Origin: a virus
Lineage: Duplodnaviria > Heunggongvirae > Uroviricota > Caudoviricetes
Direction: 5' to 3' (one strand)
Virus record (IMG/VR): IMGVR_UViG_3300009702_000014
Location: 1 to 62,444 of that record
Length of the DNA: 62,444 bases
Made by a program: the position numbers and the translations under genes. How positions within the stretch are numbered: position 1 is the stretch's first letter; the number at the start of each line of letters is the position of its first letter. The notes beneath the pieces were generated by a model. It did not search any database. It was not told the DNA's origin and saw only the letters and a program-made list of their open reading frames with translations. Positions 13,567 through 62,444 of this stretch are shown here, piece after piece.

Positions 13567-16428
13567 TTAAACGGGGCTAGAATGCAACTTTTGAATATTC
13601 TGCACTGCTTCGACTATATCGTGGTTTTCTTGGTGCCACTCCTCGGGCTGAGTTTTGATATAATTTTCCAAGAATACGAAGCAAGCATTAAAATCTTGGA
13701 CATTGATACCATGTTTGAGCATGATAGCACCTACGCGAGGCTCCAAAATCTTAGAATTAACTTCAAGCTTTCTTTCCTTAAAGTCGTATTCGTGGCTGTA
13801 TACAGAATAAGGCAAACCTGTAACCTTGCAATACCTCTTTTCTTTGTGCCCAACGTCGATATCTACAGGGGCAACCATTCCGGGGAAAATCTTCTCAGCC
13901 GCCGCTTCCATAATCTCCTTGATTCGAGCAATCGTCTCGTCCGCGTGGTCCTTGTAAATCTCAAAGATTACAGAATCGTGAACTGTAAGAACAATGTAGC
14001 CGTAGCCTGTTTCTTTTAGGTAAGCGAGAAGGTCCACCATAGCTTGCTTTGTGACATTCGCAGACATGGACTGAATCTTGTGGTTTTGTGCCTGTCTAGC
14101 TGCGCCGCCCTGTAAACGCCGGTGCTCTTCTTCTCCTACCTCTTCTTCGGAAGGAATCTCGTACCAACGGATACGTCCAAATGGGTCTTGTGTGTAGCCG
14201 CGTGTAAGCGCCTCGGCCACAGAGCGTTTTAGGAATTTATTTACATCAGGGTATTGCCCCAGGAACCCATCAATCATATCTTGTCCCTGGTCAGCATTTT
14301 CTGCAAAACCTCTGTTCACAAGGCCAACTGCGGAAATGCCATATGGAATCAGCTTATCCAATATTGCTATTGGGCTAGACTATACCTTTATTGAATAGTT
14401 TTATTCAATACCTGCCGTATTATGCTTTCGCATCCAGCTTCACCCATATCTTTTGACGTAGGGCAGCGTGAGTCGTTGAACCATTTGGAAGCCTTTCGGC
14501 TAACTCTGGCTGCTGATTGCCCATGTAGGGTTTCCAGCAATTGAGCAGGTTTTATTTCGGCTATTCTATTAACCGAAAGATACTCCTTTTGACATTCGCC
14601 TCAGTTCTTCACCACTGAGGCTTTTCCCATCTACACTGAACACCCCTTTTCTGAAGGCATCCTCTGGAAGCTTGAAAATATTCTTGGCATTTTCCCAGTG
14701 TACATCTTGTGAGTTAACTGCCTTGATGAAATTCTTATCCCCCGAGGCATACGCTAGAATACGAGATTCCACGGAAGAATAGTCAGCAAAGACAAGAATT
14801 TTGTCATCCTCGGTGGTGAGGAAACTCTTTAACATGTCAGGAGGGATATTTTGTAGGTTAGGTTTGCGGGAAGAGTTGTGTACACATATTTTATTTGCAA
14901 TGAAATTGTGAGTCTCTTCTACCTCTATGTCATAGACATCGACAACTTCGCCTGGGTACTCAACAGAAGTAATTCTGTGGTTATATGGAGTTTCATCATA
15001 GAACCATTCCTGAATATCTCTGACTACTCGGCCAGCATTTATATCTCCAGATAAAGCTAATACCCTGTCATTAGGCTTAAGGTCTTTAGCTTCTTTGTAC
15101 GTACCGTCTACTAAGCGTATCTTATGGTCTGCTGTCACTTTTAGTGAGCCGGTGTGCTTATTACCTTGACCAGTCCAGTTTACCTCGACTACTTCTTTGT
15201 GGCCTGTTTTTCCTGCCCAAGTGACGGGTTTAACAACAAGATTCAAAGAATCGTCGTATGAGTAAACTAAATCACCCGGTCTAATATCCTCAATTGGAAC
15301 ACCTTTAGGGGATACATCTCTAATAGACTCCACAAGGGAGCCTTTAGCTACACAAAACCGTCCGGTTGCTGTTTCAGCTTGAATTAGCAAGGAGTGAATT
15401 CTTCCATCGGGCCAAATCAAATCAATGTACCCTTTACCATAAGTAGAAGAAATCTTAGAGGCTTCTTTATAGTCCAGAAGTTTAGGCACAAGAGGGTGGT
15501 CGATGGTACGCAACACCTGTTCATCTGCCTTCTCTAGCCCAAAAAAGTCAGCAATCTGCTTTGGAGAGCTAACTTTAAATGCCTTGGGAACAAAGGTATT
15601 AAACAGGGAAATGACTCCTTCTCTTTGAGCTAATTCCTTACCAAAGCTCTGATTTAATACCCCTTCTAACAAAGCGGCCTTGTTACCATATTCCCCAGCC
15701 GCGTCACTCCAAGCGCTCTTGTTAATTTTTACTCCTCGATACTTCATTTCGGCGGCCGCAAAGATAACATCCATTTCTAGCTCAATAACCTTCTCTAGCC
15801 CGAATCGTTTCACAAACTTCCATTGATTACGGGCAATCTCAATCATGTAGCGAACATCGTCTCTGGCGTACCTAATCTGCTCCTCAGAGAGCGGTCGGTG
15901 GGCCCAATCCGAAGTCCCCTGGTCTTTCTGGATAATTGCTTTATTCGCATAGCGGTATACTGTGGCTTGCAATGAGTGAGAGAACTTGCGATTATGTTTT
16001 GTGTTGAATTCTAAGTTGTCGTCCTTTTCTTCCAAAAGCGGCTCCCATTGCCCTAGGTGCTCCATGCTCTTGGCAGAGACTTTACCAGAAATGCGAGTTG
16101 CTTCATCTGGCTGCCTCTTACCAGCATTAAGAACCTGAGAGGCAACCATCGTACACCAAACTTTCTTAAATTGTAGGTCCGTCTTGATGTTGAACCAATC
16201 CAATTCGAATACCGCTTGATGAATTAGAAAGCGATAGTCTTCATCAATCAGGCGTTGTAGCAAATCATGGGTTTCTTCGTTCCAGTCATGTAATTCAATA
16301 GTTCCATCTTCGTAGGCCAATTGCACGAGTGCAATCTGTGCCTCGGGGTTGCGAGGCTCAAGTGTGCCTCGACCATAGCCATCTGTCGTTTCAATATCTA
16401 ATGCTACAAGCTTTTCATTATCAATCAT
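13567..16428 (-). CDS. polA: Family A DNA polymerase with 3'-5' exonuclease; join(16428..14572,14349..13567), contains an intein
   Basis: LDIETT exonuclease, TGRF/SSRKPNLQNIP, ADYSSVESRI (motif A), spliced KGVSFGIPYG (motif B), TVHDSVIFE (motif C). Confidence 0.95.
14350..14571 (-). mobile_element. Group I intron (222 nt, no homing endonuclease) in polA motif B
   Basis: P1 UUUCGGU/GCCGAAA with U.G at the 5' splice site; P AAUUGCUGGAAA, Q AAUCAGCAG, R GUUCAACGACU, S AAGGUAUAGUCU; terminal G; splicing restores SFG|IPYG in frame. Confidence 0.93.
14875..15354 (-). mobile_element. Mini-intein (160 aa, Hint only) in polA
   Basis: Starts CVAKGSLV, block B VTADHKI, ends VYDIEVEETHNFIANKICVHN followed by Ser; too short for an endonuclease domain. 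Confidence 0.93.
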
Positions 16429-55890: not shown

Positions 55891-56904
55891 TTAGTTGAAT
55901 TCCTCGCCTGTCTCTTTATACTTTTTGTTTAGGATTTTTACCATCAGCCGCGTACCATCCGAAGCAAGCCTGTCCGGGGAGGGGCGTATAACGATTCCCT
56001 CGTTAATGTGTAATCCCTGACCACTGACCCGTTCCGTACCATCGGCAAGCCGTTTTAGGTTGACGTCTTTTAATGGCCCGGTATAGTAAAGCGGCGCCCA
56101 ATACTCAAAAATTGCATCAGGGATATCTCCGAGGCTAAGACTCTCACCATTTACACGCACATCAAAAAACAACACAGTAAGCTTTTGCTGACCATACTTA
56201 AATCCCTTTTGCAGAGGAATTACTTCACCAAAGAGTTGCACATCGTCCTCTGGCAAAAATTCATCGAACATGTCAAAGGCCCCCACATTGCGGCCAGCAG
56301 TCCAGTAAGCATTTGACGCAGACTCTTCTAGTACCATATCCCGACTCAGCAGCCCTTTCGACGTAACAAATATCTCACCCGCAGCCGTGCGGCCATAAAT
56401 AACCTGGCTACCGTGAATTTTCTCACTGATATTGACGCGCTCGTCCTCCGAGAATTCATGGCGGTAAATACCAAATTGCTCTACGTCATGTTGTGTGAAT
56501 CGACCCTCCGGCAACTTTTTGACTTGGCCCAAAAGGGACTGTGGGATAGGAGGCTCATACTTATGGATATTAAGCCTCTCGCTCACGTCCTCACCATAAG
56601 GGACATCAGCCAATTCGGGGAAGAATTTATCCGAGGGAGAGACAGCCCCCATCGACAACTCTCCACGTAGGCGAATTTCTCGCACGCGGTCCTTATGCGG
56701 ACCACCAAGATATTCCTTCCACGGTGCTTGCAATTCCTCAGGCAACACAGACTTGGCCGGGATAAAAATTACATCTTCCCCGCCTTCGTAAATACCTTTC
56801 TGCACCACGACCTGAAACTGCCCTACCTTACCCAGCATCAGCTTGTCGGCATTCGGGTGGGGGAATAATTCAATTTTGTCTTTAAACACTTTCCACTGTG
56901 CCAT
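55891..56904 (-). CDS. RNA ligase, DRB0094/Rnl2-like family
   Basis: PHPNADKL N-domain; SEKIHGS (motif I), LFGEV, FFDV, NEGIVI, KILNKKY. Confidence 0.88.
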   Translation of the reverse strand: MAQWKVFKDKIELFPHPNADKLMLGKVGQFQVVVQKGIYEGGEDVIFIPAKSVLPEELQAPWKEYLGGPHKDRVREIRLRGELSMGAVSPSDKFFPELADVPYGEDVSERLNIHKYEPPIPQSLLGQVKKLPEGRFTQHDVEQFGIYRHEFSEDERVNISEKIHGSQVIYGRTAAGEIFVTSKGLLSRDMVLEESASNAYWTAGRNVGAFDMFDEFLPEDDVQLFGEVIPLQKGFKYGQQKLTVLFFDVRVNGESLSLGDIPDAIFEYWAPLYYTGPLKDVNLKRLADGTERVSGQGLHINEGIVIRPSPDRLASDGTRLMVKILNKKYKETGEEFN

Positions 56905-56926: not shown

Positions 56927-57193
56927 CTATGAGAATGCTGAAAACGCATTAACCTCTTCTTTGTCGTTCAACTCTCTCACATGCAGACCTATAAATGGGT
57001 TTTCGTCATGTCCTATTGCATAGGTATGATATCCACGTGGGTAGTGCTTTTTGAACGTCTTAATACTACGTCCGCGAGCCTTATTTTTACTCGGAGCCTC
57101 GACCATCACTACATCTATACAAAATTCGGGAGGTTCATAATAACTTTTTCCGGGCAATTTATATAAGGGTGTAGTTACTAACCATTTTCTCAT
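56927..57193 (-). CDS. Hypothetical protein (start probably MRKWLV)
   Basis: Coupled between RNase H and the ligase. Confidence 0.5.
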   Translation of the reverse strand: MRKWLVTTPLYKLPGKSYYEPPEFCIDVVMVEAPSKNKARGRSIKTFKKHYPRGYHTYAIGHDENPFIGLHVRELNDKEEVNAFSAFS

Positions 57194-57585
57194 AACACTC
57201 GACTCCTTTCGTCGGCCCGAGAATTCTCGTGCCGAGGTACCCACCGGAGCGTATAATTCGGCATCAAATTCAGCAGCCTCTTAGCTTCTGCATGGAGAGG
57301 CTTCAAATGCTTCGCACGGCACCTGAAACGCCCTTCAAGCTGATAAATAATTAACTGCGAGTCTCCTATGATTTCAATATCACTGATACCCAAGTCGATA
57401 GCCTTTTTCAAACCTGCAATCAATCCATAATATTCAGCAACATTGTTAGTTTGTTCTAATTCCCTGGGAATATAATCTGTATTTTCAGCAAAGATAGAGG
57501 ACTCAAGCACATAGCCATAACTGGCGAGACGCCCCTTATGCGGGCTAGAAGAACCGTCAAAATACAGTTTTGCCTTCATTTTCAC
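57190..57585 (-). CDS. rnhA: Ribonuclease HI family protein
   Basis: YFDGSS, TNNVAEY, GDSQLI, WVPRHENSRAD. Confidence 0.9.
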   Translation of the reverse strand: MKMKAKLYFDGSSSPHKGRLASYGYVLESSIFAENTDYIPRELEQTNNVAEYYGLIAGLKKAIDLGISDIEIIGDSQLIIYQLEGRFRCRAKHLKPLHAEAKRLLNLMPNYTLRWVPRHENSRADERSRVL

Positions 57586-57729
57586 CCCACCCTTTCAACC
57601 TATGATAGCAGTTTTCAATATTAGAATAATGAGTGCCTGGTGCGCTTTGGAGTCCCCTCTATTTTATTTCATAAGGTAAAGGCTCATAGGCATCTTCTTA
57701 CAAAAAGAAAAATCCCCTGAGCCTTTCAG

Positions 57730-57809
57730 TGGTGGTAACGGTAGGAATCGAACCTACATGTATCCAATTACTCTTTCAAGTCTTTAGGAGAGACAGGAGA
57801 TACGCTACC
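57730..57809 (-). ncRNA. Rearranged tRNA-like RNA 1 (anticodon-like CCT)
   Basis: 7-bp acceptor, A73-CCA, canonical T arm, GTCT-CTCCTAA-AGAC hairpin, no D arm in the normal position. Confidence 0.75.
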
Positions 57810-58118
57810 ACGTCGTTTCCGCAAATCATATCCTAGCTTATCTGCCCAAGCCTTAAGAATTTCCTCGTCTGTGTAGTAACCAAACAATTTAAAGGCTTGA
57901 TGCCCTGTATTCTGTCCTACAATAATAACTTGGGTTTCATCCGCATGTCCAACACCAACACATTGGAGGCCGTGGTCATAATAATTAGGATAAGTGTGGT
58001 TTGGATTAGGCCAACCTTTTTCTGTAATAGCCCGCCAAATTTCCTTTCCCACACTCTTATCTTCCTCAATTTCATGCAGCCTGTCATTAAGCACAACCAT
58101 CACACTATTAAATCCCAT
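57768..58118 (-). CDS. Hypothetical protein (116 aa)
   Basis: ORF between tRNA genes; 3' end overlaps tRNA-like RNA 1 by 42 nt. Confidence 0.6.
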   Translation of the reverse strand: MGFNSVMVVLNDRLHEIEEDKSVGKEIWRAITEKGWPNPNHTYPNYYDHGLQCVGVGHADETQVIIVGQNTGHQAFKLFGYYTDEEILKAWADKLGYDLRKRRGSVSPVSPKDLKE

Positions 58119-58134
58119 TTTATCTCCCTTGTTT

Positions 58135-58209
58135 TGGTGGCCCCTGTAGGAATCGAACCCACGTCCCTGCGTTCGAAGCGCAGAATCCTGTCCGTTGAAC
58201 GAAGGAGCC
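58135..58209 (-). tRNA. trnR: tRNA-Arg(TCG)
   Basis: CTGCG-CTTCGAA-CGCAG, CCA. Confidence 0.9.
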
Positions 58210-58211
58210 TA

Positions 58212-58511
58212 TCAAGAAAATGTATCGAGTAATGCATCGCGTACATCATCAGGAGTAATTTCAACGATGTGCCGTCGGTTGTTTTGAGCATTAAACGCTA
58301 GTTTCACCCCAAGAATGGTTGAAAAAGCATTCCCTTCCTCAAAGTCGAGTCCTTCACTCCAAACATTCTCCCACTCTTCCTCAACGAGATTATCAATTTC
58401 CCCGGCAGAGATAGACTGTCGGTAGAGAGGAGCATCATACCCGAACATCGCATCTTGGATTGTTTCTCGTGCATTATCGCGTTCTGAAAGGACATAAACA
58501 GTAGAAAGCAT
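58212..58511 (-). CDS. Acidic hypothetical protein (99 aa)
   Basis: SD GAGAGGGGAG; ORF between tRNAs. Confidence 0.55.
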   Translation of the reverse strand: MLSTVYVLSERDNARETIQDAMFGYDAPLYRQSISAGEIDNLVEEEWENVWSEGLDFEEGNAFSTILGVKLAFNAQNNRRHIVEITPDDVRDALLDTFS

Positions 58512-58721
58512 GGTTTCTCCCCTCTCTTAAACTGTACAACTAGAGATAATGAGAAAGATGTGACAGTTTGATTCGGCACTGCCAAGCCAAAGGGTATGAT
58601 TCGCTTCACCTGCGTCTGAGGTATTTAGTACACGCGCCTTAACGTCGTGTTTCTCACTGACTGTACCGGGTAGCTAATCCGTCTTTAGTCTTTTTCAGTA
58701 GGGCGAGTGATTCACCCCATT

Positions 58722-58798
58722 TGGAGTCCCGTGCAGGATTCGAACCCGCGATTCCTGAGTTAGAAGCTCAGAGCCTTAGTCCACTAGACGAACGGGAC
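58722..58798 (-). tRNA. trnR: tRNA-Arg(TCT)
   Basis: CTGAG-CTTCTAA-CTCAG, CCA. Confidence 0.9.
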
Positions 58799-58923
58799 AT
58801 GCCTGGAAAGCATTTGATAACGGAGGGCCTTCCTCGCCCTCTTCGGTCCCCGAGTGCTTACGTGATATCCCGCTTGCCCTCGGTTGAGGACTGACTAGAG
58901 TCTATACACTAGGTTTATGAGAA

Positions 58924-59011
58924 TGGTGGCAGCGATAGGATTCGAACCTACAAAGTCGTTATGACAAACAAAGTCTCAGCCTGTCCCGTATGCCAATTCC
59001 ACCATCTGAGC
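58924..59011 (-). pseudogene. Pseudo-tRNA-Leu(GAG) with unpaired acceptor stem
   Basis: Leu-type D loop TGGTGGAATTGGCATAC, CTGAGAC loop, T arm and CCA present; GCTCAGA does not pair with CGCTGCC. Confidence 0.6.
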
Positions 59012-59158
59012 AAAAAGCCTGACTTTCACAGTCGCAGAAATAGCCTACTGCTACAGGTACGGGAGTCTTACTGTTCGGTGCTTGGCGTGCAAAATAGCAC
59101 GCTCCCTGGGTTTTCTTATCCCGTCATTTACGGCGCTCCACCAAAGGCCGTGACTTCT

Positions 59159-59232
59159 TGGATGCGGGGCAGGAGTCGAACCTGCCTTTCGTGGATATGA
59201 ACCACGCATAGTCGCCGGACTATTTCTCCGCA
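59159..59232 (-). tRNA. trnM: tRNA(CAT), atypical acceptor stem
   Basis: CGTGG-TTCATAT-CCACG; acceptor 3' strand appears 1 nt short; CCA. Confidence 0.7.
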
Positions 59233-59236
59233 ATAG

Positions 59237-59315
59237 TGGTTGCAGGGGTTGGAATCGAACCAACAACGACGTGCTTATGAGACACGTAAGGCGAACCAAT
59301 AGCCTTCTCCCTGCC
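59237..59315 (-). tRNA. trnM: tRNA(CAT) with 1:72 mismatch
   Basis: CGTGT-CTCATAA-GCACG; G1.A72; CCA. Confidence 0.8.
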
Positions 59316-59346
59316 ATAAAATTGTAACCTAGAGAAACATGAGGAG

Positions 59347-59421
59347 GGTGAGTGCGCGGGATTTGAACCCGCAAACGACTGTTAGTTGGACAGTTTGATA
59401 ACCATTATCGGAGTAACCCTA
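59347..59421 (-). pseudogene. Degenerate tRNA-like element
   Basis: D hairpin GATA-ATGGT-TATC, ACTGT-CCAACTA-ACAGT, T arm GCGGG-TTCAAAT-CCCGC; weak acceptor, no CCA. Confidence 0.45.
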
Positions 59422-59441
59422 TCTCCTGGCTGCTAGGCTTT

Positions 59442-59513
59442 TGGTACCGTGGAAGGGAAACGAACCCTTATGCTGTCGCTTATGAGACGAAGCCCTCACC
59501 TTGAGTCCACGGC
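59442..59513 (-). tRNA. tRNA(CAT) (Met or Ile2), short D arm
   Basis: GCCGTGG/CCACGGT, CTCATAA loop, CCA. Confidence 0.75.
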
Positions 59514-59666
59514 ATAAATGCGGGTTTTTCTGCGGCCCCGCACCGCAGCCCTGTCGTCACGCAGGGACTTACAATCCTCAACGCCACGTTCCAGTTTGGA
59601 CTTTCACCGTGTCGGACGCTATTTATCGGTAGAATTTGAAGCCATTAACCGAGCGAATGAGGAATA

Positions 59667-59741
59667 TGGTAGGCCCGCTCGGACTTGAACCGAGAACTTC
59701 CACTTTGTAGGAGTGGCACTCTGCCTTTGAGTTACGGGCCT
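59667..59741 (-). tRNA. trnV: tRNA-Val(TAC), C33
   Basis: CCACT-CCTACAA-AGTGG, CCA. Confidence 0.82.
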
Positions 59742-59882
59742 GAGCAGGGGGTTTTTCTAAGGGAACCCCTTAACCCTGCGGAAATCTGAGGTATTGCCCT
59801 AAGCCGCATTCCGCTGTAAGCTTCCGGGCCCCCTGTAAAAATTATTATGGAGGACTTTTGTACGTCGGAGCCTCCTTCCGAC

Positions 59883-59957
59883 TGGTACGCCCACCAGGAT
59901 TCGAACCTGGATTAGCTGGATATAAGCCAGATGCTCTTACCGTTGAACTATGGGCGC
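59883..59957 (-). tRNA. trnI: tRNA-Ile(TAT)
   Basis: CTGG-CTTATAT-CCAG, A73, CCA. Confidence 0.85.
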
Positions 59958-59962
59958 ACAAA

Positions 59963-60048
59963 TGGTGTGCTTAGGATAGGCGTGCTGTGACGCCTCGTTT
60001 TACGTCTGGTTCCAATTCGCACACGTGCCGGATTGGTTCTCCTAAGCC
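59963..60048 (-). ncRNA. CCA-ending cloverleaf-like RNA without tRNA consensus loops
   Basis: GCTTAGGA/TCCTAAGC stem, three internal hairpins, ends ACACCA. Confidence 0.5.
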
Positions 60049-60068
60049 TGATTACTAGCCACCCTTTG

Positions 60069-60835
60069 CTAGATTATAATATTATCTAACGCTGGTCTTA
60101 ATGAAGTATCAGAAATCATAGCATCGAGAAATCTTTCTGCTTCGTTGATTTCTTCGCTCTCAAGGGTCACAAAAGGTGTAGCTGCTTCACGATGAATCCC
60201 TACATGAGTAATTCCAAAATAACCAGTGTCTAAGATGGGTTCCTTTCCTGTGAGCATACCATCATTCTTTCGATTCGTCAAGTATTCAACCAAGTCGTCG
60301 ACCGTAAAAATAAGCATATCTTCGGCGTCCATAGCATCCTTCCTTTCATAGTCATATCTTATCAGAAAGAAAGTGAGAAGGATGAGACTGTTTTCTCAGC
60401 CTCTTTTACTCTATTTTCAACCTCAGGAATATGTGGATAATGCCCACGTTGCTGATAGACCCAATAAAGCAAACCGTAATATCCAAACCTCCTTACAAGG
60501 TTAAAAACTTCGTCATATTTTTCTGTAGGAATTTCTTCTTTATCTGAGGAAGAATAATACCATGTGTCACTTAGATTAACATACCATTTATCATCCATAT
60601 GAAGAAACATATCTTCATATAATAGAAACATTGTTTCGGCCCTAGAAATTTCTAATTCGGCTTTGCGAAGAATTTCCCATAGAGCTTGGTAAACTTCTCT
60701 GCTTCCATCGTTCCAGCCCTTTTTGTAATCATCCCTTTCCTCATAATCAATTTCAGGATTACCCGTCTTTACAGCCTTAGGATAAATCCCAACATCAATT
60801 TGAAACAATTCATCTATGAGTTCCTGGTTTGTCAT
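60069..60835 (-). CDS. Two hypothetical proteins (60069-60332, 60362-60835)
   Basis: SD-led ORFs inside the tRNA cluster. Confidence 0.6.
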
Positions 60836-60855
60836 AAACAGCCTTTCACAAGACT

Positions 60856-60935
60856 TGGTAGGGGCGGTTGGAGTCGAACCAACGTGTGACCGGCTAACCT
60901 TTCAATCGGATATCAGCCGAAGGGTATACGCCCCT
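60856..60935 (-). ncRNA. Rearranged tRNA-like RNA 2 (anticodon-like GAT)
   Basis: Exactly colinear with 57730-57809; TCGG-CTGATAT-CCGA hairpin, TTGAAAG, T arm, A73-CCA. Confidence 0.78.
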
Positions 60936-60954
60936 GCGAAAAGCATTGCTTTGT

Positions 60955-61029
60955 TGGCTGCCCATCCAGGATTCGAACCTAGAAATACGGATTCAGAGTC
61001 CGCTGTTTTGCCAGTTAGACTAATGGGCA
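60955..61029 (-). tRNA. trnQ: tRNA-Gln(CTG)
   Basis: CGGA-CTCTGAA-TCCG, CCA. Confidence 0.9.
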
Positions 61030-61043
61030 ATGGGGTAGATACA

Positions 61044-61202
61044 CTAATAGTCGTCGCCTAATCTTTCCCGCTTGAATCGAATAGCTTCTTCCATTCCTCC
61101 CCAATTATCTACACCAGCCCGTCGTAAATCTCGAAGCCATTCAACTTTCTCTAAGAGTTCTTCATATTCCGCTTTGCGGATTGTCACAGTTTCTTCATCC
61201 AT
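61044..61202 (-). CDS. Small phage protein with GVDNW motif (52 aa)
   Basis: MDEETVTIRKAEYEELL...AGVDNWGG; SD AGAGG. Confidence 0.65.
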   Translation of the reverse strand: MDEETVTIRKAEYEELLEKVEWLRDLRRAGVDNWGGMEEAIRFKRERLGDDY

Positions 61203-61217
61203 AGCTAGACCTCTAGT

Positions 61218-61305
61218 TGGTGGGGACGGTGGGAATCGAACCCACACGGCCTCTCGGCCACTTGTTTTTGAAACAAGCATGTCTACCTAATTACATCACG
61301 TCCCC
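61218..61305 (-). tRNA. trnL: tRNA-Leu(CAA)
   Basis: CTTGT-TTCAAAA-ACAAG, long variable arm, CCA. Confidence 0.9.
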
Positions 61306-61323
61306 CGCACCCGTTGCAAGTGA

Positions 61324-61411
61324 TGGGGCCGAGGGTGGGATTCGAACCCACGAGAGGAATTACCCTACCGGTTTACAAGACCGGTGCTATCAACCGCTAA
61401 GCGACCTCGGC
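61324..61411 (-). tRNA. tRNA with Thr anticodon (TGT) but long variable arm and C73
   Basis: CCGGT-CTTGTAA-ACCGG; variable hairpin AGGG-TAATT-CCT; CCA. Confidence 0.8.
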
Positions 61412-61547
61412 ATGGCGCTGGCATTAGGCTTTTTACCGCTCCTATTTATCCGGCCCAGCTATGTCCGGTAGGAAGTTTCTCATTAAGGTAGTAGGTACCT
61501 ACTCACTTAACGATAAGTAATCATAACATAGATAAATATGAGAATTA

Positions 61548-61883
61548 TTAGGCAGTATATTTGCCTATTGTCTTTCCTGAATCATTTAGAAGGTAGGCGT
61601 AAGTATTAAAAATTACCTGTTGGACTGAACTATCCGTAAACCATAATTCTAGCAGATGAACTGTACGCTCGGATTCTTCCAGAGAAGTACCTAAATCATA
61701 ATTTGCGCCGTGGGCATCCCAAGCAGCTTGGTCTGAATTTTTGTCATATGGTTGGTTTCTGTCATATAGTCGATTATGTTCATCCATGTAGGCCAACCCA
61801 CGGTCTACGGCTTTACGAATATTATCATAATGTGTAAATTGCTCTATTTCGTTTGAAGAGCCTGTGTGTATCTTTAGTATCAT
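61548..61883 (-). CDS. Hypothetical protein (111 aa)
   Basis: ORF between tRNAs. Confidence 0.6.
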   Translation of the reverse strand: MILKIHTGSSNEIEQFTHYDNIRKAVDRGLAYMDEHNRLYDRNQPYDKNSDQAAWDAHGANYDLGTSLEESERTVHLLELWFTDSSVQQVIFNTYAYLLNDSGKTIGKYTA

Positions 61884-61920
61884 GTGTGTCTCCTGTGTGT
61901 GTATCTATCTATGTCATAAC

Positions 61921-61997
61921 TGGTCGCGGAGGTAGGACTCGAACCTACAACCTTACCTGTCCAGGAGGCATAATCTAGCCAATTGATATACTCCGCG
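61921..61997 (-). tRNA. trnP: tRNA-Pro(TGG), atypical loop CCTGGAC
   Basis: C1-G72, A73, CCA; C33. Confidence 0.72.
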
Positions 61998-62000
61998 ATA

Positions 62001-62073
62001 TCAGCGGTGTTGGAATCGAACCAACCTATATCTCCTATCCAACAGGAGCGACCCTCCTTGAGTCTGACCGCTG
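62001..62073 (-). tRNA. trnP: tRNA-Pro(TGG) without encoded CCA
   Basis: CAGCGGT/ACCGCTG-A, CTCCT-GTTGGAT-AGGAG, followed by TAT. Confidence 0.78.
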
Positions 62074-62074
62074 A

Positions 62075-62151
62075 TGGGGTAAATGAAGGGAATCGAACCC
62101 TCTACTCCCGAGTCACAGTCGGGTGCCTCAACCTTTTCGGCATCATTTACC
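62075..62151 (-). tRNA. trnH: tRNA-His(GTG)
   Basis: G-1:C73, CCCGA-CTGTGAC-TCGGG, CCA. Confidence 0.92.
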
Positions 62152-62156
62152 ATAAA

Positions 62157-62233
62157 TGGTGGCTCCCCTCGGAATCGAACCAAGTCCTTGAGTGCTTCAA
62201 ACCCACGTGCGTCACCAGATACACCTGAGAGCC
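62157..62233 (-). tRNA. trnF: tRNA-Phe(GAA)
   Basis: TGGGT-TTGAAGC-ACTCA, A73, CCA. Confidence 0.82.
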
Positions 62234-62444
62234 ATACTATTTAATCTTGGGAATTTGATTTGGCTTTATTTCATTCACTCTCCCGGCTCAACTCTAATTT
62301 CTCCCCGAACATTCGCGTAGGGAACGAATCTAAAGTTTAGGCCGCTATCATCCATCATAAGTGTAATCCCTGTAGGTACACCGTCGCGGATATCATAGCA
62401 TTCTATAACTCGTTCATGCGGCGCTTCGTTTTTAAGAGTGTAAG

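What the first reader, a model, noticed from the sequence alone, without database searches (positions are those of the whole stretch)
57730..60935. Two colinear 80-nt tRNA-like RNAs with the anticodon arm placed before a D-loop-like segment
Seen: 57730-57809 = GGTAGCG TATCTCCT GTCT-CTCCTAA-AGAC TTGAAAG AGTAATTGGATACAT GTAGG-TTCGATT-CCTAC CGTTACC A CCA. 60856-60935 = AGGGGCG TATACCCT TCGG-CTGATAT-CCGA TTGAAAG GTTAGCCGGTCACAC GTTGG-TTCGACT-CCAAC CGCCCCT A CCA. Every segment has the same length in both. The acceptor, T and anticodon stems differ in sequence but still pair, and TAT..CCT and TTGAAAG are invariant. The 7-nt loops fit C32-U33-NNN-A37 with CCT (Arg) and GAT (Ile), two anticodons not carried by any canonical tRNA in this window. 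There is no D arm after the acceptor strand. Instead a D-loop-like string with GG (TAATTGGATA / TAGCCGGTCA) follows the anticodon arm, and its flank can pair back to the 5' connector (GTATC/GATAC). Inference: a conserved tRNA topology with D and anticodon arms in swapped order. It could be a functional decoder that evades anticodon nucleases, or a decoy. I know no named family with this layout, but could not search Rfam. Caveat: copy 1 overlaps the 3' end of ORF 57768-58118.
Basis: partly seen in the sequence, partly recalled or inferred. Interest (0 to 1): 0.9.

Follow-up and report, generated by a model that had tools for sequence, protein, structure and literature searches.

The report
Phage tRNAs with a transposed D-arm
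The two 80-base elements are real genes for an arginine tRNA and an isoleucine tRNA whose D-arm is split around the anticodon arm. This non-cloverleaf wiring is shared by at least 150 distinct phage tRNA genes, is missed or mislabelled by gene finders, and was not described in any paper I could search.

Summary
Confirmed.

- **Detection:** ARAGORN misses both. Rfam's tRNA model reaches about 29 bits only by deleting the D arm.
- **Family:** three motif scans of IMG/VR gave 154 distinct 80-nt homologues. Their anticodons are only Arg (ACG, UCU, CCU) or Ile-type (GAU, UAU, CAU). Members sit unannotated in the tRNA arrays of cultured Streptomyces, Microbacterium and Bacteroides (crAss-like) phages. 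One is mislabelled tRNA-Phe. Bacterial genomes essentially lack them.
- **Structure:** covariation supports a 3-bp helix between positions 11-13 and 37-39 that encloses the anticodon arm.
- **Key test:** I moved block 37-49 back between positions 9 and 10 and dropped A34-A36. ARAGORN then called 156 of 156 sequences as ordinary tRNAs with the expected anticodon, against 1 of 156 in native order.
- **Function:** the base after GG tracks the anticodon (A with Arg, U with Ile) and all Ile types have discriminator A, so synthetase recognition is likely. The phage's 29 canonical tRNAs include no CCU or GAU.

Best reading: working decoder tRNAs with a rewired core. Escape from nucleases is untested.

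This scan has already flagged the same family in other genomes. I found no published description.

The parts
57730..57809 (-). Copy 1: rewired tRNA-Arg(CCU), 80 nt with encoded CCA
   Evidence: Sequence. Rfam tRNA model 28.7 bits with the D arm deleted. Model R1 and more than 150 homologues. In un-permuted order ARAGORN calls it tRNA-Arg(cct).
57797..57800 (-). Copy 1, RNA positions 10-13 (UCUC): equivalent of the D-stem 3' strand (canonical 22-25)
   Evidence: Positions 11-13 pair with 37-39, 99.5% paired across 61 sequences with CG/AU/GC/UA covariation.
57779..57795 (-). Copy 1 anticodon arm (positions 15-31); anticodon CCU at 57786-57788
   Evidence: Stem 16-19 with 27-30 is 99.6% paired with covariation. 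Loop is C-U-CCU-A-A.
57774..57778 (-). Copy 1 UGAAA linker (positions 32-36); G33-A36 invariant in the family
   Evidence: Zero entropy at positions 33-37 in 154 sequences. 53 of these came from a scan pattern that left those positions free.
57770..57773 (-). Copy 1, positions 37-40 (GAGU): equivalent of the D-stem 5' strand (canonical 10-13)
   Evidence: Covariation with positions 11-13. Block-transfer test.
57761..57769 (-). Copy 1 D-loop equivalent (positions 41-49, AAUUGGAUA): A14, R15, G18, G19, A20 and A21 analogues
   Evidence: A41, G45 and G46 are near-invariant. Position 47 is A in 73 of 74 Arg-type genes. Positions 42 and 52 covary like the 15-48 Levitt pair.
57741..57757 (-). Copy 1 T arm (positions 53-69) with loop UUCGAUU
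   Evidence: 98% paired with covariation. Matches the Rfam tRNA consensus.
60856..60935 (-). Copy 2: rewired tRNA-Ile(GAU), 80 nt with encoded CCA, 19 nt downstream of tRNA-Gln(CUG)
   Evidence: Sequence. Rfam tRNA model 29.3 bits with the D arm deleted. In un-permuted order ARAGORN calls it tRNA-Ile(gat).
60923..60926 (-). Copy 2, positions 10-13 (UACC): equivalent of the D-stem 3' strand
   Evidence: ACC pairs with GGU at positions 37-39.
60905..60921 (-). Copy 2 anticodon arm; anticodon GAU at 60912-60914
60896..60899 (-). Copy 2, positions 37-40 (GGUU): equivalent of the D-stem 5' strand
60887..60895 (-). Copy 2 D-loop equivalent (AGCCGGUCA); U after GG as in other Ile-type members; G42 with C52 as the Levitt-like pair
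   Evidence: Position 47 is U in 71 of 80 Ile-type genes, and all 80 have discriminator A.
57768..58118 (-). Upstream ORF (phrog_7147, unknown function). Its stop codon is the UAA at tRNA positions 40-42. Context only, not part of the RNA.
   Evidence: The profile match ends at residue 103, which is nt 57810, one base before the tRNA gene.

Best explanation
Both elements are working elongator tRNAs: tRNA-Arg(CCU), reading AGG, and tRNA-Ile(GAU), reading AUC and AUU. They belong to a phage-borne family whose core is re-threaded.

Compared with a 77-nt cloverleaf, the segment made of the D-stem 5' strand plus the D loop (canonical 10-21) has left its place after position 9. It now sits inside the variable region, behind a three-A linker.

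Mapping from rewired to canonical positions:
- 8-9 = U8, A9
- 10-13 = 22-25
- 14 = 26
- 15-31 = 27-43
- 32-33 = 44-45
- 34-36 = linker
- 37-40 = 10-13
- 41-49 = 14-21
- 50-52 = 46-48
- 53-77 = 49-73

The D stem therefore forms by long-range pairing around the anticodon arm. That gives one long interrupted hairpin with the same count of stacked layers as a normal D stem plus anticodon stem (4 + 1 + 5). The D-loop GG is still free to meet the T loop.

**Shown:** the helices, the covariation, the return to a standard cloverleaf on block transfer, the coupling of identity bases to the anticodon, and the lack of redundancy with canonical tRNAs.

**Inferred:** an L-shaped fold, RNase P processing, charging by host ArgRS and IleRS, and use on the ribosome. 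Why phages keep this wiring is unknown.
For: 1. **Family.** Three motif scans of IMG/VR gave 154 distinct 80-mers that fold alike.
2. **Helices.** In a gapless 61-sequence alignment, 98.4% of cells are paired against 62% in shuffles and 35-45% when partners are slid. Helix 11-13 with 37-39 is 99.5% paired, with CG 29, AU 26, GC 4, UA 2 at 11-39 and CG 38, UA 15, AU 4, GC 3 at 12-38. None of the scan patterns specified positions 11, 12, 38 or 39.
3. **Unbiased mutual information.** The top 15 column pairs are all helix pairs of this structure. Next come 23-47, 42-52 and 23-77.
4. **Block-transfer test.** In native order ARAGORN of 156. After moving 37-49 to between 9 and 10 and dropping 34-36, it of 156 with the expected anticodon. 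A block shifted by 3 nt gives 65 of 156 and a reversed block gives 16 of 156.
5. **Identity elements.** C35 goes with A after GG (73 of 74). From established knowledge of E. coli tRNA-Arg, A20 plus C35 are ArgRS determinants. A35 goes with U (71 of 80). All 80 Ile-type genes have discriminator A. U33 and A37 are invariant.
6. **Levitt-like pair 42-52.** AU 111, GC 24.
7. **This genome.** Its 29 canonical tRNAs include none with CCU or GAU. The only canonical Ile tRNA is UAU, yet ATT plus ATC make 47 per 1000 codons. 27 of the 29 canonical tRNAs encode CCA, as both rewired genes do.
8. **Across 196 loci.** Only 15 of 201 rewired genes share the locus with a canonical tRNA of the same anticodon, against 46.7 +/- 5.1 on shuffling (0 of 5000 as low).
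9. **Setting.** The genes sit inside tRNA arrays in the same orientation. Copy 2 lies 19 nt downstream of tRNA-Gln.
Against: - There is no RNA or charging evidence for any member.
- The window comes from a subsurface metagenome.
- The 3D fold is inferred from sequence only.
- The anticodon stem has only 4 Watson-Crick pairs plus a U/U apposition.
- The homologues were gathered with motif patterns and are related to each other, so counts overstate the number of independent events.
- The loci are partial genomes, so the test for redundancy with canonical tRNAs can miss distant canonical copies.
- The phage tRNA set is incomplete anyway (no ACG or GCG for CGU/CGC), so a missing anticodon need not be filled.
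Confidence: 0.8

Rival explanations
1. A tRNA-like decoy or regulator, not used in translation. It would mimic tRNA-Arg or tRNA-Ile to soak up a host tRNA-directed nuclease or toxin, or to titrate a synthetase or modification enzyme.
For: - The odd topology could keep it off the ribosome while still showing an authentic anticodon loop and elbow.
- An RNA ligase gene (55891-56904) lies next to the array. This fits a phage that faces tRNA damage.
Against: - A decoy should accompany the isoacceptor it protects. Instead, rewired genes avoid loci that hold a canonical tRNA of the same anticodon (15 observed against 46.7 expected).
- This genome has no canonical CCU or GAU tRNA.
- The full acceptor, discriminator and position-20-like identity set is kept.
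- CCA is encoded.
Confidence: 0.1
2. A D-armless tRNA with a long unstructured variable loop, as Rfam's alignment reads it and as in some mitochondrial tRNAs. There would be no D stem at all.
For: - The Rfam tRNA model aligns both copies by deleting 15 D-arm positions and inserting 18 nt in the variable region, at 28.7 and 29.3 bits.
Against: - Helix 11-13 with 37-39 covaries as strongly as the classical stems.
- The 'variable' insert carries an intact D-loop signature (A, R, NN, GG, N20, A) and a Levitt-like partner.
- Block transfer restores a cloverleaf in 156 of 156 sequences.
- ARAGORN's mitochondrial mode, which allows armless tRNAs, still misses both.
Confidence: 0.05
3. A precursor that is cut and re-ligated into canonical order, for example by the neighbouring RNA ligase, as happens with the permuted tRNA genes of some algae.
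For: - An RNA ligase gene lies 0.8 kb away. A3Wally also has one beside its array.
Against: - The 5' and 3' acceptor strands are already at the termini.
- Restoring canonical order would need three cuts and three ligations inside the core.
- No bulge-helix-bulge or intron-like motif flanks the block.
- The invariant linker and junction bases are best explained as parts of the mature fold.
Confidence: 0.03
4. Decaying tRNA pseudogenes or chance tRNA-like sequence.
For: - Standard finders do not call them.
Against: - Exact 80-nt length across more than 150 distinct sequences, with compensatory changes in every helix and invariant tertiary-type bases.
- Presence in phages that infect three host phyla.
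Confidence: 0.02

Closest known systems
Canonical class I bacterial and phage tRNA-Arg and tRNA-Ile (Rfam RF00005)
   Same: - 7-bp acceptor stem, discriminator and CCA.
- T arm with the GGUUCRANYCC motif.
- 7-nt anticodon loop with U33 and A37.
- D-loop signature A14, R15, G18, G19, A21.
- A20 in Arg types and A73 in Ile types.
- The same number of stacked layers in the anticodon/D limb.
   Different: - Backbone connectivity: the D-stem 5' strand and D loop follow the anticodon arm instead of preceding it.
- The D stem encloses the anticodon arm.
- There is an extra AAA linker.
- The secondary structure has three branches rather than the four of a cloverleaf.
- The Rfam model sits at or below its gathering score, and ARAGORN fails.
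D-armless mitochondrial tRNAs (for example metazoan mt tRNA-Ser(AGY) and nematode mt tRNAs; from general knowledge)
   Same: - No hairpin between the acceptor and anticodon stems.
- Cloverleaf-based finders miss them.
   Different: - Those tRNAs have truly lost the D stem and the G18/G19 elbow contact, and they are shorter.
- Here all D-arm parts are present but relocated, and the RNA is longer (80 nt).
- ARAGORN's mitochondrial mode does not find them.
Circularly permuted tRNA genes of Cyanidioschyzon and other algae, and split tRNAs of Nanoarchaeum (from general knowledge; reviewed in PMC4090602)
   Same: - tRNA segments lie in a non-canonical order in the gene.
   Different: - In those cases the whole 3' half precedes the 5' half, and processing restores a normal cloverleaf.
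- Here the termini are normal and only an internal block is transposed. The mature RNA itself is presumably non-canonical.
Class II tRNAs (Leu, Ser, Tyr) with a long variable arm
   Same: - Extra nucleotides lie between the anticodon arm and the T arm.
   Different: - The class II extra arm is a self-contained hairpin, and the D arm stays in place.
- Here the extra segment pairs with the 5' connector and carries the D loop.
The same rewired Arg/Ile phage tRNA family flagged earlier by this scan in other genomes (unpublished AI notes e1-311730, e1-1610711, e1-1890486, e1-304184, e1-244410, e1-249412)
   Same: - The same architecture, the same restriction to Arg and Ile, and the same failure of tRNA finders. 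I reached this reading before I read the notes (note, notes read).
   Different: - These are new members in a 202-kb subsurface phage, with anticodons CCU and GAU.
- Here one genome carries both an Arg and an Ile member, alongside canonical Arg(UCG, UCU) and Ile(UAU).

Membership tests
Canonical tRNA (Rfam RF00005, cloverleaf) | Score at or above the Rfam gathering threshold (29 bits) | tested here: inconclusive
   Copy 2 scores 29.3 bits and copy 1 scores 28.7 bits, only in the sensitive search and only with the D arm deleted. Neither was listed in the default gathering run.
Canonical tRNA (Rfam RF00005, cloverleaf) | 7-bp acceptor stem, 5-bp T stem with a GTTCRANYC loop, and a 7-nt anticodon loop with U33 and R37 | tested here: met
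   acceptor stem 98.1% paired, T stem 98.0% paired, U21 and A25 invariant.
Canonical tRNA (Rfam RF00005, cloverleaf) | D hairpin (10-13 with 22-25 around the D loop) between position 9 and the anticodon arm | tested here: not met
   Only 6 nt separate A9 from the anticodon stem. ARAGORN of 156 in native order.
Rewired (transposed D-segment) phage tRNA-Arg/Ile family (undescribed; defined here and in earlier scan notes) | 80-nt frame with U8-A9-U10, helix 11-13 with 37-39 enclosing the anticodon arm, and invariant G33-A-A-A-G37 | tested here: met
   Both copies fit without gaps. The helix covaries. The motif is invariant in 154 sequences.
Rewired (transposed D-segment) phage tRNA-Arg/Ile family (undescribed; defined here and in earlier scan notes) | D-loop signature (U-A-R-N-N-G-G-N) after the helix 3' strand, C50-A51, and a Levitt-like 42-52 pair | tested here: met
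   Copy 1 has A42 with U52 and copy 2 has G42 with C52. In the family the pair is AU 111 and GC 24.
Rewired (transposed D-segment) phage tRNA-Arg/Ile family (undescribed; defined here and in earlier scan notes) | A standard cloverleaf is restored when block 37-49 is moved between positions 9 and 10 | tested here: met
   156 of 156 sequences, both window copies included, are then called by ARAGORN with the expected anticodon.
Rewired (transposed D-segment) phage tRNA-Arg/Ile family (undescribed; defined here and in earlier scan notes) | The mature RNA is expressed, aminoacylated and used in translation | not testable with these tools
   No RNA run was listed for this DNA. Needs tRNA-seq and charging assays.
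D-armless (mitochondrial-type) tRNA | Loss of the D stem and of the G18/G19 elbow nucleotides | tested here: not met
   GG and the D-stem strands are present and covary. ARAGORN's -mt mode does not call them.
Circularly permuted tRNA gene (algal type) | The 3' half lies upstream of the 5' half, so the acceptor strands are internal in the gene | tested here: not met
   The acceptor strands are at positions 1-7 and 70-76 and are followed by the discriminator and CCA.
Class II tRNA (long variable arm) | The variable region forms its own hairpin and the D arm is in its normal place | tested here: not met
   No conserved self-pairing within positions 31-52. That region pairs with 11-13 instead.
Viral tRNA-like structures and other Rfam families | A match to a curated covariance model | tested here: not met
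   At E up to 10, no family other than RF00005 covers the two elements. A weak Mahella-1 match (17 bits, E 4.2) only grazes copy 2.

The most novel reading that the evidence does not exclude
The transposed-D wiring is an adaptive counter-defence. It would keep recognition by RNase P, ArgRS and IleRS, EF-Tu and the ribosome. At the same time it would make these Arg and Ile tRNAs poor substrates for host tRNA-directed nucleases or toxins, or for the phage's own host-tRNA-depleting enzymes. That would make it a second viable solution to the tRNA fold, maintained by conflict.
Probability: 0.25. Interest if true: 0.95.

Novelty: new variant of a known kind. Interest (0 to 1): 0.85.

Why it matters
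The cloverleaf connectivity of cytoplasmic-type tRNAs is treated as nearly universal. This would be a natural, widespread class of tRNAs that keeps every structural part but threads the backbone differently.

- **tRNA structure.** It shows that the L-shape does not depend on the cloverleaf order of strands. It gives a ready test bed for what synthetases, RNase P, EF-Tu and the ribosome actually read.
- **Annotation.** These genes are invisible to ARAGORN and are left out of GenBank records, or are mislabelled tRNA-Phe because the invariant UUGAAAN resembles a Phe anticodon loop. Phage tRNA inventories and codon-supply analyses are therefore biased for Arg and Ile.
- **Phage-host conflict and engineering.** If the wiring changes susceptibility to tRNA-targeting immunity, it bears on phage counter-defence. 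It could also offer scaffolds for orthogonal tRNAs.

Tried and rejected
61.5% paired, the same as shuffles. Rejected.
- **Single-sequence MFE folds.** They differ between the two copies and do not show the conserved structure. Not used.
- **Megablast of 57000-62444 against GenBank phages.** No match.
- **Rfam at E up to 10.** Nothing but the generic tRNA model.
- **ARAGORN in mitochondrial mode.** Misses both elements.
- **Scan of 185,579 prokaryote species genomes with the family motif.** 8 pattern hits. Only 2 are true members, and both sit in phage-like tRNA arrays of MAG contigs. The family is not a host feature.
- **RNA evidence.** No RNA holder was listed for this DNA, and none was listed for the single-gene query. 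The only holder is a DNA run from a subsurface metagenome that may be the source.
- **Homing-endonuclease idea.** HNH and other homing-type endonuclease ORFs often abut rewired genes. They are similarly common next to canonical tRNAs in the same loci. I found no clear enrichment, and the two window copies have no endonuclease neighbour. Left open.
- **Upstream ORF of copy 1 compared with the largest neighbour cluster.** No similarity.
- **Nine full-text literature searches** (D-arm, noncanonical, permuted, non-cloverleaf, phage tRNA and similar terms). No description of this architecture. Subscription journals are not covered, so a prior report cannot be excluded.
- **Tree of un-permuted rewired tRNAs plus canonical tRNAs.** Poorly resolved. 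Holding all rewired Arg and Ile genes as one clade is not rejected and has the higher likelihood (p-AU 0.54). This is consistent with one origin but does not prove it.

Full report
**Observation**

The two elements are on the minus strand of the window, at 57730-57809 and 60856-60935. They align without gaps over 80 nt.

ARAGORN finds 17 tRNAs in the window, all on the minus strand, but neither element. Rfam at gathering thresholds lists 14 tRNAs and a group I intron, again without them. In a sensitive Rfam search of 57500-61200, the only model covering them is the generic tRNA model. It scores 29.3 and 28.7 bits against a gathering score of 29. It gets there by deleting 15 D-arm positions and inserting 18 nt in the variable region.

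The window is the first 62 kb of a 201,951-bp virus record that is 97% complete by CheckV. A covariance model built from the two copies finds no third copy in that genome.

**A large phage family**

A motif taken from the 3' half (UUGAAAG, GG, GGUUCGANUCC at fixed spacing) hit 74 IMG/VR contigs. The two-copy model then scored an element of exactly 80 nt at 68-92 bits in almost every one.

Two further patterns each left a different part of the molecule free. Together they give 154 distinct 80-mers with intact acceptor, anticodon and T stems.

The anticodons are GAU 44, ACG 32, UCU 29, UAU 28, CCU 13 and CAU 8. These are Arg or Ile-type only. One lower-scoring relative, in Mildred21, carries UCG.

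The same motif in one genome from each of 185,579 prokaryote species gave 8 hits. Only two are family members, and both sit in dense tRNA arrays on phage-like MAG contigs.

Members occur in GenBank phages of three host groups:
- About 77 Streptomyces phages (Stanwilliamsviridae, for example Mildred21).
- Microbacterium phages (A3Wally, Zooman).
- The crAss-like Kehishuvirus 'tikkala' of Bacteroides.

In all of them the element lies inside a tRNA array with no annotation under it. In Mildred21 one member, Arg-UCG, is annotated as tRNA-Phe(gaa). The invariant UUGAAAN evidently looks like a Phe anticodon loop to the finder.

**Structure**

I counted pairs on a gapless MAFFT alignment of 61 distinct sequences. 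The helices tested were:
- acceptor, 1-7 with 70-76
- 11-13 with 37-39
- anticodon stem, 16-19 with 27-30
- 42 with 52
- T stem, 53-57 with 65-69

Overall 98.4% of cells are paired. Column shuffles give 62%, and sliding the partners gives 35-45%. Nineteen of 20 pairs show changes on both sides.

The new helix, 11-13 with 37-39, is 99.5% paired. Pair 11-39 shows CG 29, AU 26, GC 4, UA 2. Pair 12-38 shows CG 38, UA 15, AU 4, GC 3. None of my search patterns specified these four positions. In the window the helix is CUC/GAG in copy 1 and ACC/GGU in copy 2.

A mutual-information scan of all column pairs in the 154 sequences made no assumption about structure. It ranks 15 helix pairs of this model first. 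The next pairs are:
- 23-47, the anticodon middle base against the base after GG
- 42-52
- 22-24, two bases of the anticodon itself
- 23-77, the anticodon middle base against the discriminator

**Topology**

The pattern fits a transposition, not a loss. After the helix strand G37-N-N-U40 comes A41-R42-N-N-G45-G46-N47-N-A49. This is the D-loop signature A14, R15, 16, 17, G18, G19, 20, 20a, A21. N52, just before the T stem, covaries with R42 as Y48 does with R15 in the Levitt pair (AU 111, GC 24).

My mapping from rewired to canonical positions is:
- 10-13 = 22-25
- 14 = 26
- 15-31 = 27-43, with a U15/U31 apposition as the fifth layer
- 32-33 = 44-45
- 34-36 = an added AAA linker
- 37-40 = 10-13
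- 41-49 = 14-21
- 50-52 = 46-48

The length agrees: 77 + 3 = 80.

I tested this directly. For the 154 family sequences plus the two window copies (156 in all), I moved block 37-49 back between positions 9 and 10 and dropped 34-36. ARAGORN in standard bacterial mode then called 156 of 156 as tRNAs with the expected anticodon (75 Arg, 73 Ile, 8 CAU). In native order it called 1 of 156. With a block shifted by 3 nt it called 65 of 156, and with the block reversed 16 of 156.

What follows is inference from the textbook tertiary contacts of yeast tRNA-Phe (9 with 12-23, 45 with 10-25, 46 with 13-22, 8-14-21, 15-48, 18-55, 19-56). The three new backbone joints connect nucleotides that are already neighbours in the L-shape. 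The joints are 9 to 22, 45 to 10 through the AAA linker, and 21 to 46. The D/anticodon limb keeps 4 + 1 + 5 stacked layers. The 3D fold could therefore be preserved.

**Function**

The identity features behave as in real tRNAs:
- C35 goes with A at the position-20 analogue in 73 of 74 Arg-type genes. By established knowledge of E. coli tRNA-Arg, A20 and C35 are the ArgRS determinants.
- A35 goes with U there in 71 of 80 Ile-type genes.
- Every Ile-type gene has discriminator A, while Arg types have G, A or U.
- U33 and A37 are invariant.

In this genome the 29 canonical tRNAs cover nearly all amino acids but include no CCU and no GAU. The only canonical Ile tRNA is UAU, while ATT plus ATC account for 47 per 1000 codons and AGG for 5 per 1000. 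Both rewired genes encode CCA, as do 27 of the 29 canonical ones.

Across 196 loci, a rewired gene shares its locus with a canonical tRNA of the same anticodon in 15 of 201 cases. Shuffling the anticodons among loci gives 46.7 +/- 5.1, and 0 of 5000 shuffles were as low. So rewired genes stand in for canonical isoacceptors and do not duplicate them.

This favours working decoders over decoys. No expression or charging data exist for this DNA.

**Context and caveat**

ORF 57768-58118 matches phrog_7147 over residues 1-103, ending at nt 57810. Only a non-conserved 13-residue tail, closed by the UAA at tRNA positions 40-42, overlaps copy 1.

An RNA ligase gene (55891-56904) and an RNase H-like gene (57190-57585) flank the array.

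Homing-type endonuclease genes often abut family members elsewhere. They are about as common beside canonical tRNAs in the same loci, so I make no claim from this.

In a poorly resolved tree of un-permuted rewired tRNAs and canonical tRNAs, a single clade of all rewired Arg and Ile genes is not rejected and has the higher likelihood. That is consistent with one rewiring event followed by Arg/Ile identity switches.

**Novelty**

Nine full-text searches found no description of this architecture. Subscription journals are not covered.

The scan's own notebook shows that other agents flagged the same family in other phage genomes and reached the same reading. I had reached it beforehand (note). 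Those notes are not independent evidence.

**Verdict**

The best explanation is functional tRNA-Arg(CCU) and tRNA-Ile(GAU) with a transposed D segment. The selective reason for the rewiring is unknown.

Noticed in passing
window 14357-14581 (-): Group I catalytic intron, Rfam RF00028, 75.4 bits, full-length model match.
   Followed up: no
window 59443-59514 (-): A third off-model tRNA with anticodon CAU. It has a 3-bp D stem with a short loop and a 4-bp anticodon stem. The Rfam tRNA model gives 28.0 bits, below the gathering score. ARAGORN calls it only in mitochondrial mode. Its fold z-score is -2.8.
   Followed up: partly
window 58921-59006 (-) and 59343-59419 (-): Two more stretches with a good T arm (GGUUCGAAUCC and GGUUCAAAUCC) and CCA-like ends that no finder calls as tRNA. 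Their folds are not better than shuffles. Their nature is unexplained.
   Followed up: partly
window 58560-58720, 58800-58920, 59520-59660, 59745-59880, 59960-60060: G+C-rich spacers of 100-160 nt between tRNA genes, with no ORF and no Rfam match. They may be processed leaders or unknown small RNAs.
   Followed up: no
L252:371-449 (Streptomyces phage Mildred21, MF155946.1 91367-91445): The feature annotated tRNA-Phe(gaa) is a member of the rewired family with anticodon loop CUUCGAA (Arg-UCG) and helix CCG/CGG. It is probably misannotated because the invariant UUGAAAN mimics a Phe anticodon loop.
   Followed up: yes
window 55891-56904 (-) and 57190-57585 (-): RNA ligase (PF09414 plus the PHA02142 OB domain) and an RNase H-like gene lie directly beside the tRNA array. 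A3Wally also has an RNA ligase next to its array. This suggests a tRNA-repair context.
   Followed up: partly
window 59883-59957 (-): Canonical tRNA-Ile with the genomically encoded anticodon UAU, which is uncommon in bacteria. It coexists with the rewired Ile(GAU). Together they would cover all three Ile codons.
   Followed up: no
L091:1958-2479 (Mildred21 gp106): A tRNA nucleotidyltransferase (CCA-adding enzyme) gene ends 15 nt before a rewired Ile(GAU) gene that lacks an encoded CCA.
   Followed up: no
G000:C1:65255-65330 (-), outside the window: A tRNA-Trp(CCA) candidate found only by ARAGORN's mitochondrial mode. It may be another off-model tRNA in the same array.
   Followed up: no
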